Of a stretch of DNA of 41,868 nt, positions 2,407 to 3,851 are shown piece after piece. The stretch is from a virus (Duplodnaviria > Heunggongvirae > Uroviricota > Caudoviricetes). The translations under genes were made by a program, and so were the position numbers. The stretch is taken from positions 1 through 41,868 of IMG/VR virus record IMGVR_UViG_2974481312_000001; one strand, given 5' to 3'. Below the pieces are notes generated by a model. The model ran no database searches. It had not been told where the DNA came from and was given only the letters and a program-made list of their open reading frames with translations. The stretch's first letter is position 1. Every line of letters begins with the position of its first letter.

Positions 2407-3826
2407 AGATAGGAGCGGGAGTAACGACGTACACGCCTTATTGTCACCATCCGGTGCTAAGAAATGGTTAACATGTCCCGCGTCGCTGATATGCGAAAAA
2501 GATATCCCTAACACTTCCGGCAAGGCCGCAGTGTTAGGTACGGCAATGCATAGCCTTTCTGAATATCATTTAAACGCGTATATACGCGGCACTTCGTTGC
2601 CGTTAGAGCGAGATGTAGGGGCATATGTGCTGGAAGAAGGTAAAGGCGCAGTTAAAGCATTAATTAAGCCGATGAAAGGTGCGGTGCTGGTTACAGATGA
2701 CATGGTAGAGCAGGTGCGCAAGTACACCGACTACTGTAAAGCGATTATTGATGTAGCGACATACGCCAAACTGGAAATGCGCGTCAATCTTACTGGGGTG
2801 TTGCATCCGGGTTACGAAGGCGTTGAGACGTTCGGAACTGCTGACCTTGTCGCCGTTCAGGAACTGGCTAATACTGACGAGCACATGCTCATTATTGGAG
2901 ACCTTAAAACAGGGCGGCATCGTGTCGAAGCGAAAGAAAATAAGCAGCTTATGCTTTACGCTCTCGGTGTTTATCGCAGACTCAAGAGGCGTTATAACAT
3001 AACAGTTGTTCGTCTGGTCATCTTCCAGCCATACGCTGGCGGTGCGTCGGAATGGGACATCTCAGTCGAAGGCCTTGAACTGTTCGCTAAGTTTGCGCAG
3101 AAACGCGCGGTAGCTGCGCTCGACGCCTACCACCGTGGTAAGAAAAATCTGAAACCGTCCGATTTCAAGCCGTCGGTTGATGGGTGCCAGTGGTGCCGGT
3201 TCTCAGAACAGTGCCAGGCAAGGACTAGAGCATCCAATGCCGTTCTGGCCAAAGAACTGGAGAATGATGCAGATGTATATCGGCGGGCCGTGGAACGGGT
3301 GGCTAAGTTCTGCAACGAGGCGGACTATATGAGCGTTTGGGAGGATGTTCAACCTAGCGATATCCTTAAGTTGCTGCCCGACGAGACAGATTTACCTAAG
3401 AAGCCAGTTAGAGAGGATGACTTTGCGTTAGAACTTACCACTAAACAACTAGTGGCTGAGTATGAGAAGTTGCCGTTTTTGCGTCAGCACATCGACAAAG
3501 TAGAAAAAGCGATGGCGGCCGCGCTTCATTCCGGTAAAAAAGTTCCCGGTTACAAGCTGGTTGAGGGGCGCCCTGGTAATCGAGCATGGAAAGATGAAGA
3601 CGCTGTAAATAAATTCAGGGAAAACCATGTAAACGGCTATCTGCTGGATAAGACTGTTCCGGTATCACCGACCGAAGCGGAAAAGATTATTGGCAAGGAA
3701 GACCCAGAACTTTGGGCCGAGCTAGCTAAACTCGTGACCCGTAAGCCGGGCGCGCCATGTGTAGCAACGGTGGATGATAAACGCCCAGAATGGAAAAATG
3801 TTACGGAAGACGATTTAGAAGCTTGA
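2390..3826 (+). CDS. DUF2800-like PD-(D/E)XK nuclease (Cas4/RecB-like)
   Basis: N-terminal HALLSPSGAKKWLTCP, motif IIGDLKTGR, C-terminal Cys cluster CQWCRFSEQC; start moved to ATG 2390 with GGAG RBS (track start 2357 overlaps the HNH gene). Confidence 0.7.
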   Translation: MTLKAKDRSGSNDVHALLSPSGAKKWLTCPASLICEKDIPNTSGKAAVLGTAMHSLSEYHLNAYIRGTSLPLERDVGAYVLEEGKGAVKALIKPMKGAVLVTDDMVEQVRKYTDYCKAIIDVATYAKLEMRVNLTGVLHPGYEGVETFGTADLVAVQELANTDEHMLIIGDLKTGRHRVEAKENKQLMLYALGVYRRLKRRYNITVVRLVIFQPYAGGASEWDISVEGLELFAKFAQKRAVAALDAYHRGKKNLKPSDFKPSVDGCQWCRFSEQCQARTRASNAVLAKELENDADVYRRAVERVAKFCNEADYMSVWEDVQPSDILKLLPDETDLPKKPVREDDFALELTTKQLVAEYEKLPFLRQHIDKVEKAMAAALHSGKKVPGYKLVEGRPGNRAWKDEDAVNKFRENHVNGYLLDKTVPVSPTEAEKIIGKEDPELWAELAKLVTRKPGAPCVATVDDKRPEWKNVTEDDLEA

Positions 3827-3851
3827 CAAGTTAATAGTACTCTATTATATT
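3823..3851 (+). promoter_or_regulatory. Sigma70-like promoter TTGACA-17-TATATT with embedded TAATAG-TACT-CTATTAT element
   Basis: Consensus -35, 17 nt spacer, -10 TATATT; about 55 nt upstream of the 3908 start. Confidence 0.6.

What the first reader, a model, noticed from the sequence alone, without database searches (positions are those of the whole stretch)
3823..3851. Family of sigma70-like promoters sharing a palindromic TAATAG-N4-CTATTAT core
At least four rightward promoters (1220-1248, 3823-3851, 8033-8061, 19639-19667) and the leftward promoter of the XRE-HTH gene (1176-1204) have near-consensus -35 hexamers, 17-nt spacers and -10 hexamers, and each spacer carries the same inverted-repeat element (TAATAG / CTATTA arms). 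A 13-position fixed pattern recurring only in intergenic DNA is very unlikely by chance and suggests one phage-encoded dimeric regulator gating a whole promoter class. Candidate binders are the XRE-HTH protein (928..1146), the AlpA-like HTH (40138..40308) or the AP2-like protein (37932..38303).
Basis: seen in the sequence. Interest (0 to 1): 0.65.

Follow-up and report, generated by a model that had tools for sequence, protein, structure and literature searches.

The report
Phage-wide repressor operator inside promoters
A 16-base palindrome (TAATAG-N4-CTATTA) sits inside almost every promoter of this Salmonella Jersey-type phage and is most likely the docking site of the phage's own small Cro-like repressor, a familiar kind of switch used here genome-wide in phages that are sold as strictly lytic.

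Summary
The window is a circularly permuted Jerseyvirus genome (Salmonella phage f3SE, 100% identity). TAATAG-N4-CTATTA occurs perfectly 5 times and with 1-2 mismatches 5 more times (16 strand matches against 0.98 in shuffles). Nine of ten sites lie in the 8% of DNA that is noncoding. It is the top inverted repeat in an unbiased enumeration, here and in 47 Jerseyvirus/Kagunavirus sequences. The arms are as conserved as the -35/-10 hexamers, while the central 4 bp drift freely. The element sits in four different registers relative to the -35 box. RNA polymerase recognition cannot explain that pattern; a dimeric operator can. The best binder is the 72-aa XRE protein (928..1146). It is a full-length homologue of phage 434 Cro, is flanked by two operator copies, and is the only HTH protein shared by all clades carrying this motif family. 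The AlpA-like, AP2-like and NinH-like proteins fit worse. Only the AlpA-primase operon promoter lacks the element. Binding and the direction of control are inferred, not shown. I rate it a new member of a known kind (Cro-type repressor and operators), of moderate interest. A published claim of episomal "lysogens" for a sister phage raises that interest.

The parts
928..1146 (-). XRE / 434-Cro-like HTH gene (72 aa), proposed operator-binding repressor
   Evidence: Pfam HTH_31 2.7e-7 and HTH_3 3.4e-7. PHROG 'transcriptional repressor' families. Best PDB hit is phage 434 Cro 1zug, E 1.4e-8, residues 6-69 against 4-65.
1174..1204 (-). Leftward promoter of the XRE gene (TTGCAC 1204-1199, 17 nt, TACTAT 1181-1176). 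Variant operator TAATAGTACAGTAATA at 1174-1189 covers the -10.
   Evidence: Sequence read. Perfect match to relaxed TAWTAS-N4-STAWTA, 2 mismatches to the strict pattern. Conserved in all Jerseyvirus loci.
1220..1248 (+). Promoter of orf1280 (TTGCAT-17-TATAGT) with operator TAATAGAGTACGATTA at 1229-1244 (1 mismatch; register -26..-11)
   Evidence: The CGATTA mismatch is itself conserved in Jerseyvirus. The orthologous promoter carries the motif family in all clades.
3823..3851 (+). Promoter of the Gp2.5-like SSB / DNA polymerase operon (TTGACA-17-TATATT) with a perfect operator at 3832-3847
   Evidence: 11/12 in the promoter scan. Annotated as a plain sigma70 promoter in phage Jersey. Orthologue alignment.
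8033..8061 (+). Promoter of the helicase operon (TTGATA-17-TATATT) with a perfect operator at 8042-8057. It lies in the 3' end of ORF 7777..8064.
19639..19667 (+). Promoter of the imm / recombination-nuclease / Rha operon (TTGCAT-17-TATTAT) with a perfect operator at 19651-19666 (6 nt after the -35; register -23..-8)
   Evidence: Imm_superinfect Pfam hit for 19702..19881.
36223..36257 (-). Leftward promoter ahead of the NinH-like / terminase / structural genes (TTGACT 36251-36246, 17 nt, TATATT). Operator TACTAGTCAACTATTA at 36242-36257 (1 mismatch) overlaps the -35. An extra half-site is in the spacer.
   Evidence: 10/12 in the promoter scan. The arrangement is conserved in both genera, each keeping one perfect arm.
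38530..38561 (-). Leftward promoter of the orf38300 / AP2-like operon (TTGACG-18-TACTAT) with a perfect operator at 38530-38545 covering the -10 (register -20..-5)
39575..39605 (-). Leftward promoter (TTGCGT 39605-39600, 17 nt, TACTAT 39582-39577) of a small-gene operon. Perfect operator at 39575-39590 covers the -10.
   Evidence: It is followed by an RBS and an unannotated 43-aa ORF at 39413..39544.
29062..29077 (-). Weak or doubtful copy (TAATAGAAATCTACTT, 2 mismatches). Class-1 geometry on the minus strand but a poor -35 (TTATTC).
   Evidence: Conserved as AAGTAGACTTCTATTA in Ent1.
38773..38788 (.). Doubtful copy (AAATAGAAAAATATTA, 2 mismatches) that overlaps the T-tail of a leftward terminator at 38799-38820
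40078..40106 (+). Promoter of the AlpA-like / gp / primase-helicase operon (TTGATT-17-TATACT), the one conserved promoter without the operator
   Evidence: The best match to the relaxed operator has 3-4 mismatches in 38 of 41 unique upstream sequences of Jerseyvirus and Kagunavirus.
40138..40308 (+). AlpA-like HTH_17 protein (56 aa), a less likely alternative binder
   Evidence: Pfam HTH_17 1.1e-8. phrog_66 'excisionase and transcriptional regulator'. Phyletic pattern.

Best explanation
TAATAG-N4-CTATTA (family consensus TAWTAS-N4-STAWTA) is an operator built into the core of the phage's sigma70-type promoters. A dimer of the phage's 72-aa 434-Cro-like XRE protein (928..1146) most likely binds it, with one helix-turn-helix per arm and the arms 10 bp apart on one face of the DNA. 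The central 4 bp would be uncontacted.

The operator always overlaps the -35/-10 core. It spans -26..-11, -23..-8 or -20..-5, and -41..-26 at the late promoter. Bound protein should therefore exclude RNA polymerase and repress transcription.

Seven good sites control the replication, recombination/imm, small-gene, lysis and structural operons. A variant site over the -10 of the XRE promoter gives negative autoregulation. Conserved imperfections at the orf1280, XRE and late promoters probably set a hierarchy of affinities. The promoter of the AlpA-like/primase operon escapes control.

Shown: the sites, their non-randomness, their symmetry, their positions, their conservation pattern, and the homology of XRE to 434 Cro.
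Inferred: that XRE is the binder, that it binds as a dimer, and that the effect is repression.
For: - Statistics.
- Unbiased enumeration puts the motif first in the window, Ent1 and K1ind2. It is first or tied first in all 47 Jerseyvirus/Kagunavirus sequences.
- Arms are fixed and the centre is free. There are 27 different N4 centres among 83 unique class-1 promoters. With an anchor that ignores the motif, the left arm carries 1.77-1.96 bits per position against 0.88-1.03 for N4.
- The element occupies four registers relative to the -35.
- XRE carries HTH_3/HTH_31 and is homologous to 434 Cro over nearly its whole length.
- Operators flank the XRE gene in every clade.
- XRE is the only HTH protein present in all clades with the motif family. 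Otaku, GRNsp27, L174 and L178 lack the AlpA-like protein.
- More distant XRE clades have other palindromes in the same promoter positions: TAATAC-N4-GTATTA, TTAGC-N2-GCTAA and GTTAA-N6-TTAAC.
- Phages of one host (Salmonella: Jerseyvirus against GRNsp27) differ in the motif. That argues for a phage factor rather than a host factor.
- Established knowledge: 434 and P22 Cro/cI operators are dyads with about 4 uncontacted central bp that overlap promoters.
Against: - No binding or transcription data exist.
- The recognition helix differs between Jerseyvirus (QSLITH) and Kagunavirus (QGAINQ), although both use the same core motif.
- XRE identity falls to 30-50% across clades that share the motif family, while the AlpA-like protein (71-100% in the two genera with the exact motif) and the NinH-like protein (57-69%) are better conserved.
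- In distant clades the left arm is degenerate, so the symmetry is weaker there.
- Covariation of motif and XRE is confounded with overall phylogeny.
- A repressor covering nearly all promoters of a virulent phage has no proven rationale.
Confidence: 0.6

Rival explanations
1. The palindrome is an operator, but its binder is the AlpA-like HTH_17 protein (40138..40308). This is the first gene of the only operator-free operon. Made first, it would then switch the other promoters.
For: It is 71-100% identical across exactly the two genera that share the exact motif, whereas XRE is only about 50% identical between them. Its promoter lacks the operator. In GRNsp27, Otaku and L174 the first gene of the primase operon is the XRE gene itself, so this position is 'the regulator's slot'. 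A Kagunavirus RNA-seq paper lists an HTH gene, by gene order probably this one, among four early genes (PMC12645636; the gene assignment is my inference).
Against: tblastn finds it absent from Otaku and GRNsp27 (complete genomes) and from the 16-20 kb held for L174 and L178. All four keep TAWTAS-type sites in the same promoters. It is 56 aa with the HTH at residues 1-27 and no visible dimerisation segment. It matches excisionase-type families, which by established knowledge usually bind direct repeats as monomers. No solved homologue reached significance.
Confidence: 0.1
2. Another phage DNA-binding protein is the binder: the NinH-like Fis-type protein (35452..35679) or the putative AP2-like protein (37932..38303).
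For: The NinH-like protein (Pfam Phage_NinH, E 2.5e-4) is 57-69% identical in every clade with TAWTAS-type sites. It is not detected in the clades with other palindromes. Lambda NinH is a homodimer (PMC7166090). The AP2-like protein has homologues in most clades.
Against: Lambda NinH prefers a Fis-like 15-bp G-N13-C motif (PMC7166090). The 16-bp element has its G and C only 4 bp apart and does not fit. Otaku lacks NinH but has the sites. A Klebsiella phage with a 45%-identical NinH has no such site. The AP2 assignment is sub-threshold (13.2 bits against a cut-off of 33.3), the PHROG is of unknown function, there is no PDB relative, and identity between the two genera sharing the motif is only about 35%.
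Confidence: 0.07
3. No trans-acting protein is involved. The shared sequence is an intrinsic feature of strong phage promoters (spacer and extended -10 composition), or a relic of promoter duplication, read only by host RNA polymerase.
For: The right arm abuts or overlaps the -10. The element is AT-rich. Phage Jersey's annotators saw only sigma70 promoters. In distant clades the right arm is conserved better than the left.
Against: The left arm lies in the spacer, where sigma70 makes few base-specific contacts, yet it is as conserved as the hexamers while the 4 bp between the arms are free. Dyad symmetry is not a polymerase requirement. The element shifts by 3, 6 and -15 bp relative to the -35 among promoters. 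Paralogous copies share only the arms, so recent duplication is excluded. No usable -35 exists for divergent promoters on the other strand (read).
Confidence: 0.1
4. A host (Enterobacterales) transcription factor binds the palindrome, and the phage exploits it.
For: The motif family spans phages of Salmonella, Escherichia, Serratia and Enterobacter whose XRE proteins are only 30-50% identical.
Against: Salmonella phages of different clades differ. Jerseyvirus uses strict TAATAG/CTATTA, whereas in GRNsp27 that pattern is not enriched (4 against 1.44 expected) and only a degenerate version is seen. From my own knowledge I could match no enterobacterial regulator. The OxyR half-sites ATAG/CTAT are 7 bp apart, not 4, and Fis, Fur, TrpR, ArgR and SlmA do not fit. 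This is recall, not a test.
Confidence: 0.04

Closest known systems
Phage 434 Cro (and cI) with the OR/OL operators ACAA-N6-TTGT
   Same: The protein is homologous (E 1.4e-8 over 64 of 72 residues) and the same size (72 against 71 aa). The operator is a short dyad whose central bases are free to vary, and it overlaps the promoter core. Copies lie between the regulator gene and a divergent promoter.
   Different: The half-site sequence and length differ (16-18 bp against 14 bp). Operators are single and dispersed over at least 7 promoters around the genome, not two triplets. No cI-type partner with a cleavable C-terminal domain and no integrase were found. The phage is classed as virulent.
Phage P22 c2/Cro operators (ATTTAAG-N4-CTTAAAT; recalled from the literature, not re-read here)
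   Same: Same layout of two 6-7 bp arms around 4 uncontacted central bp (ATAATAG-N4-CTATTAT here), recognised by an HTH_3-type dimer.
   Different: Different sequence. P22 operators are clustered at PR/PL of a temperate phage.
Phage P1 C1 repressor and mycobacteriophage L5 gp71, both with many dispersed operators or 'stoperators' (recalled)
   Same: One phage repressor with many sites scattered over the genome, silencing most transcription units.
   Different: Those sites are asymmetric and bound by unrelated proteins. Both phages are true temperate phages, and L5 sites also act within transcribed regions.
Controller (C) proteins of restriction-modification systems and their C-boxes (C.AhdI appears among the PDB hits)
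   Same: Small XRE-family dimers binding palindromes inside their own promoters for autoregulation.
   Different: They control a single operon and act as activator and repressor through paired operators.
AlpA / Q-type antiterminators loaded at an element in the promoter spacer (P. aeruginosa AlpA; recalled)
   Same: A DNA element between the -35 and -10, plus an AlpA-named protein encoded by the phage.
   Different: The phage protein is 56 aa with the HTH at the N-terminus and no extra segment. The element is a symmetric dyad in variable register. Clades without this protein keep the element.

Membership tests
Sigma70-type bacterial promoters | -35-like and -10-like hexamers separated by 16-18 bp | tested here: met
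   3823 scores 11/12, 8033 scores 10/12, 36251(-) 10/12 and 38561(-) 9/12. 1220, 19639, 1204(-) and 39605(-) have TTGC-type -35 boxes (3/6) with 17-bp spacers, read. They fall below the tool's threshold.
Sigma70-type bacterial promoters | Placed upstream of operons, in the right orientation | tested here: met
   Each site lies 30-80 nt upstream of the first gene of a co-oriented gene block. Several are annotated as promoters in phage Jersey.
Sigma70-type bacterial promoters | Mapped transcription start | not testable with these tools
   No 5'-end data are available. The only RNA-seq of a relative (PMC12645636) does not map starts.
Cro/cI-type (XRE, HTH_3) repressor-operator system | Regulator with an HTH_3-type domain homologous to a characterised Cro or cI | tested here: met
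   HTH_31 and HTH_3 hits above the Pfam cut-offs. 434 Cro E 1.4e-8 and 434 repressor E 9.4e-6.
Cro/cI-type (XRE, HTH_3) repressor-operator system | Dyad-symmetric operator of 14-18 bp with half-sites about one helical turn apart and a tolerant centre | tested here: met
   Arm centres are 10 bp apart. There are 27 different centres in 83 promoters. Information content is 1.8-1.9 bits in the arms against about 1.0 in the centre.
Cro/cI-type (XRE, HTH_3) repressor-operator system | Operator overlaps the promoter core and is present at the regulator's own promoter | tested here: met
   The registers are -26..-11, -23..-8, -20..-5 and -41..-26. The variant site at 1174-1189 covers the -10 of the XRE promoter.
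Cro/cI-type (XRE, HTH_3) repressor-operator system | Physical, sequence-specific binding of the regulator to the operator | not testable with these tools
   This needs EMSA, footprinting or ChIP.
Lambdoid bistable immunity region (cI + cro, tripartite OR/OL) | Two antagonistic repressors, clustered triple operators, integrase | tested here: not met
   There is only one XRE-type gene, and the operators are single and dispersed. No integrase or S24-peptidase repressor appears in the annotation or the Pfam scans made. Not every ORF was scanned.
AlpA/Q-like antiterminator loading element | AlpA-type protein with an RNAP-engaging N-terminal segment plus a C-terminal HTH, and an asymmetric binding element at fixed register in the spacer | tested here: not met
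   The protein is 56 aa with the HTH at residues 1-27. The element is symmetric and in variable register. The element persists in clades lacking the protein.
MerR-type spacer-binding activators | Over-long 19-20 bp spacer that needs distortion | tested here: not met
   Spacers are 17 bp, and one is 18 bp.
Fis/NinH-type nucleoid protein sites | 15-bp degenerate site with a G-N13-C signature | tested here: not met
   The motif has even symmetry with G and C 4 bp apart. The NinH signature is taken from PMC7166090.

The most novel reading that the evidence does not exclude
Jerseyvirus and Kagunavirus phages are treated as strictly lytic and are widely proposed for biocontrol. They may nevertheless carry a working immunity circuit. 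The Cro-like XRE protein would shut every promoter that bears the operator: replication accessories, lysis and virion genes. Only its own weakly operated promoter and the operator-free AlpA/primase-helicase operon would stay active. The genome could then persist as a silent, self-replicating episome that makes the cell immune to related phages. This would explain the turbid plaques, superinfection-immune 'lysogens' and possible episome reported for the Jerseyvirus SGP-C (PMC8790156). SGP-C has the same nine operator sites and a 97%-identical XRE.
Probability: 0.15. Interest if true: 0.7.

Novelty: new member of a known kind. Interest (0 to 1): 0.42.

Why it matters
If the model is right, one small protein and one 16-bp word control almost the whole transcription programme of a large phage subfamily, Guernseyvirinae. 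More than 600 records in the phage collection match this window, and many of these phages are being developed against Salmonella and E. coli.

This gives three things:
- A compact, testable regulon for a group whose gene regulation is undescribed in the papers I could search.
- Ready-made orthogonal repressor/operator-promoter parts, with natural specificity variants in sister clades.
- A concrete molecular basis to test the disputed claims of carrier states or superinfection immunity in these 'strictly lytic' phages, which bears on their safety and efficacy in biocontrol.

If the protein is only a Cro-like late shut-off factor, the finding is a tidy but ordinary extension of the lambdoid paradigm.

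Tried and rejected
- A viral-contig scan with TTAATAGNNNNCTATTAT gave 120+ unrelated single hits in AT-rich contigs and only one relevant contig, phage Jersey. It was uninformative.
- A genome-contig scan with the XRE alignment found no copy in Salmonella or E. coli genomes. It found only one 19-kb contig in a Taishania assembly, likely phage contamination, and distant Clostridia/Pseudomonadota XRE genes. There is therefore no prophage evidence. The collection holds one genome per species, so this is weak.
- Literature searches for Jerseyvirinae, Jerseyvirus, Ent1, SETP3 or Guernseyvirinae with promoter, operator or repressor found no description of the motif. The Serratia phage eta and BASEL papers were not relevant.
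- Rfam found no known RNA family in the window.
- The bidirectional-promoter reading was rejected. The opposite strand lacks a -35 at the right distance for class-1 sites, and the two -10-like arms are 10 bp apart (read).
- The NinH-like protein was considered as binder after I noticed its high conservation. It was rejected on motif mismatch and phyletic exceptions.
- Site 21281 (1 mismatch to the relaxed pattern) lies inside a coding region with no promoter context and is treated as chance.
- RNAalifold on the 5'-UTR hairpin misaligned the 3' arm and was uninformative.
- I did not run structure prediction, because sequence homology to 434 Cro was already significant and the tool cannot model a dimer on DNA.
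Full report
**What the window is.** The first 20 kb is 100% identical to Salmonella phage f3SE (KU951147, Jerseyvirus, Guernseyvirinae), and 621 phage records match it. The window is the reverse complement of that record, circularly permuted, so the primase-helicase gene runs across the window ends. Gene blocks read as follows:
- AlpA-like/gp/primase (40138..913, +)
- XRE (928..1146, -)
- orf1280 / HNH / DUF2800 nuclease (+)
- Gp2.5-like SSB / DNA polymerase (+)
- helicase block (+)
- tail genes (-)
- imm / nuclease / Rha (+)
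- head, terminase and small genes (-)
- lysis and small early-looking genes (-)

**Check of the observation.** A mismatch-tolerant search finds more:
- Perfect TAATAG-N4-CTATTA at 3832, 8042, 19651, 38530 and 39575.
- One mismatch at 1229 and 36242.
- Two mismatches at 1174, 29062 and 38773.

Counting both strands there are 16 matches against 0.98 +/- 1.21 in shuffles, and no shuffle exceeded 5. I enumerated every 5-mer inverted repeat with a gap of 0-10 without prior assumptions. AATAG-4-CTATT was the most frequent, ahead of the terminator hairpins. Nine of ten sites lie in the 8.0% of the genome that is noncoding (P about 1e-9). The tenth lies in the last codons of a gene, just upstream of the next operon.

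TTGCAT and TTGCAC match the -35 consensus at only 3 of 6 positions. The generic promoter scan is not enriched overall, and only four of the sites pass it. The element at the XRE promoter is a variant (TAATAG-TACA-GTAATA), not the same repeat.

**Anatomy.** Taking the -10 hexamer as -12..-7, the palindrome lies in four registers:
- Class 1 (1229, 3832, 8042): TTGACA-n3-palindrome, with the -10 (TATAGT or TATATT) beginning in the last two bases of the right arm. The element spans -26..-11.
- Site 19651: n6, spanning -23..-8.
- Class 2 (38530, 39575 and the XRE promoter, all leftward): TTGCGT or TTGACG followed by n9-10, with the -10 TACTAT formed by the last two central bases plus CTAT. The element spans -20..-5.
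- Late-type promoter at 36251-36223: the palindrome contains the -35 TTGACT (-41..-26), and a further half-site lies in the spacer.

The arm centres are 10 bp apart, which is one turn of the helix.

**Comparative evidence.** A tblastn search with XRE found it at 95% identity or more in Jerseyvirus, about 50% in Kagunavirus, 48% in Serratia phage Otaku, 43% in GRNsp27 and 29% in phiEap-2. I fetched complete genomes and 64 viral-contig loci centred on XRE homologues. AATAG-4-CTATT is the first or tied-first inverted repeat in all 47 Jerseyvirus and Kagunavirus sequences.

Orthologous promoters keep the arms while the four central bases change freely. There are 27 different centres among 83 unique class-1 promoters. 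That set was selected by the motif, so I repeated the measurement on sequences upstream of three genes, anchored only on a generic TTG..-17-TA...T pattern. The left arm lies wholly in the spacer and carries 1.77-1.96 bits per position. That is as much as the -35 and -10 hexamers. N4 carries 0.88-1.03 bits and the 3 nt after the -35 carry 1.0-1.3 bits.

The imperfections are also conserved: CGATTA at the orf1280 promoter, TATTAC at the XRE promoter, and one imperfect arm at the late promoter. This suggests tuned affinities.

Other clades show related elements in the same promoter positions:
- Otaku, L174 and the phiEap-2 clade (L178) keep TAATAG-like sites.
- The GRNsp27 clade has a looser TAWTAS-N4-STAWTA.
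- L179 uses TAATAC-N4-GTATTA.
- L181/L182 use TTAGC-N2-GCTAA.
- L186 uses GTTAA-N6-TTAAC.

The strict pattern is not enriched in GRNsp27, which infects the same host species as this phage. That argues against a host factor.

**Why not RNA polymerase alone.** Sigma70 does not read most of the spacer. It has no need for dyad symmetry and cannot explain the same 12 bases sliding by 3, 6 or 15 bp relative to the -35. The opposite strand offers no -35 at a workable distance for class-1 sites, so divergent promoters do not explain the second arm. The paralogous copies share only the arms, which excludes recent duplication.

**Who binds.**
- *XRE (72 aa).* It has HTH_3 and HTH_31 domains. Its best solved relative is 434 Cro (71 aa), aligned over residues 6-69 at E 1.4e-8, followed by the 434 repressor. 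The glutamine equivalent to 434 Cro Q28 is conserved in all but one distant clade. Two operator copies lie between XRE and the divergent orf1280 promoter, and one of them lies over XRE's own -10. XRE is the only HTH protein common to all clades with the motif family.
- *AlpA-like protein (HTH_17, phrog_66 excisionase/regulator).* It is better conserved than XRE between the two genera with the exact motif (71-100%). However, it is undetectable in Otaku, GRNsp27, L174 and L178, and it looks like a monomeric excisionase-type domain.
Lambda NinH prefers a Fis-like 15-bp G-N13-C site (PMC7166090). Otaku lacks it, and a Klebsiella phage with a 45%-identical NinH has no such site.
- *AP2-like protein.* The label rests on a 13-bit Pfam hit.

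I therefore favour XRE, with a real residual doubt. Its recognition helix differs between the two genera (QSLITH against QGAINQ), and covariation is confounded with phylogeny.

**How it most likely works.** Host RNA polymerase starts from all the strong promoters. XRE accumulates from its own promoter and binds as a dimer to the operators. Because every operator overlaps the core promoter, XRE blocks initiation: strongly at the perfect sites, and less so at the conserved imperfect ones, including its own. The promoter of the AlpA-like/primase operon (TTGATT-17-TATACT) is conserved and operator-free in 38 of 41 distinct upstream sequences. Repression is inferred from position only. The near-consensus hexamers and the 17-bp spacers argue against a need for activation, and the variable helical face argues against a classical activator.

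**Context from papers.** I found no description of this motif. Phage Jersey's record annotates several of these sites simply as sigma70-like promoters. A Kagunavirus RNA-seq study has no promoter analysis and coarse timing. One paper reports that the Jerseyvirus SGP-C gives turbid plaques and superinfection-immune 'lysogens', possibly episomal. It names its ORF49 (Cro-like) and ORF46 (HTH_17) as a lysogeny module, without operators (PMC8790156). SGP-C has the same gene order, a 97%-identical XRE and nine operator sites against 1.4 expected. This makes an immunity or carrier-state role conceivable but unproven. A scan of bacterial genomes gave no prophage copy.

**Verdict.** By mechanism it is a Cro-type repressor/operator system. 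It is not a lambdoid immunity region: there is no cI partner, no clustered operators and no integrase. I rate it a new member of a known kind, deployed genome-wide in a nominally virulent phage subfamily, and of moderate interest.

Noticed in passing
window 39600-40138 (repeats at 39836-39855, 39889-39908, 39993-40012): A 540-bp noncoding stretch lies between the divergent promoters at 39605(-) and 40078(+). It holds three roughly 20-nt direct repeats with a CAGATACTTAAG-like core, several inverted repeats and a strong hairpin at 39774-39794. It sits just upstream of the primase-helicase operon and could be an origin with iterons or a packaging site.
   Followed up: no
window 3864-3879 (5' UTR after the promoter at 3823-3851): A 5-bp hairpin, CCGGG-cagctt-CCCGG, follows the promoter of the Gp2.5-like SSB/DNA polymerase operon. 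It is kept at the same place in distant clades with different stem sequences (CCCGG/CCGGG, CGCGG/CCGCG, CTCGG/CCGAG). Folding energies are not better than shuffles (z from -1.9 to +0.5), so the case rests on position and apparent compensation. RNAalifold misaligned it.
   Followed up: partly
window 39413-39544 (-): An unannotated 43-aa ORF (MFKKGQLVRGVLSGGYYIVITQRDTTLFAKQLGEENYGMLSAH) with an AGAGGA ribosome-binding site lies directly downstream of the operator-bearing promoter at 39605-39577. KU951147 has no CDS here.
   Followed up: partly
window 35452-35679 (-): A NinH-like (Fis-type HTH) protein is more conserved across Guernseyvirinae clades (57-69% identity) than the XRE protein (28-50%). 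It is also found at about 45% identity in unrelated Klebsiella siphophages.
   Followed up: yes
window 40138-913 and 928-1146; L005 15142-18032; L006 26573-29341; L174 10001-12655: In GRNsp27, Otaku and L174 the XRE gene is the first gene of the primase operon. In Jerseyvirus and Kagunavirus the primase block is inverted relative to XRE and is headed by the AlpA-like gene instead. A module inversion or replacement therefore separates the clades.
   Followed up: partly
window 38773-38820: The 2-mismatch palindrome AAATAGAAAAATATTA overlaps the T-tract of a leftward intrinsic terminator (stem 38799-38820) and is conserved in all Jerseyvirus loci. It is unclear whether it is an operator, part of the terminator, or both.
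   Followed up: partly
L240 (SGP-C, OK169616) 16442-16457; window 30671-30846: SGP-C has an extra perfect operator upstream of its ORF26, in the position of the KilA-N-like gene 30847..31497 of the window. The window has none there, so operator content differs between close relatives at this moron-like gene.
   Followed up: no
L191 (NZ_JACVEL010000022.1, Taishania pollutisoli assembly): A 19-kb contig in a Flavobacteriia genome assembly encodes an XRE 100% identical to the phage's. This is most likely contamination of that assembly by a Jerseyvirus.
   Followed up: no
window 36343-36371 (-): A 10/12 sigma70-like match (TTGACA-17-GATACT) lies between the end of the lysin gene and the terminator at 36279-36305. 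It has no operator and no obvious downstream gene, so it is probably chance.
   Followed up: no
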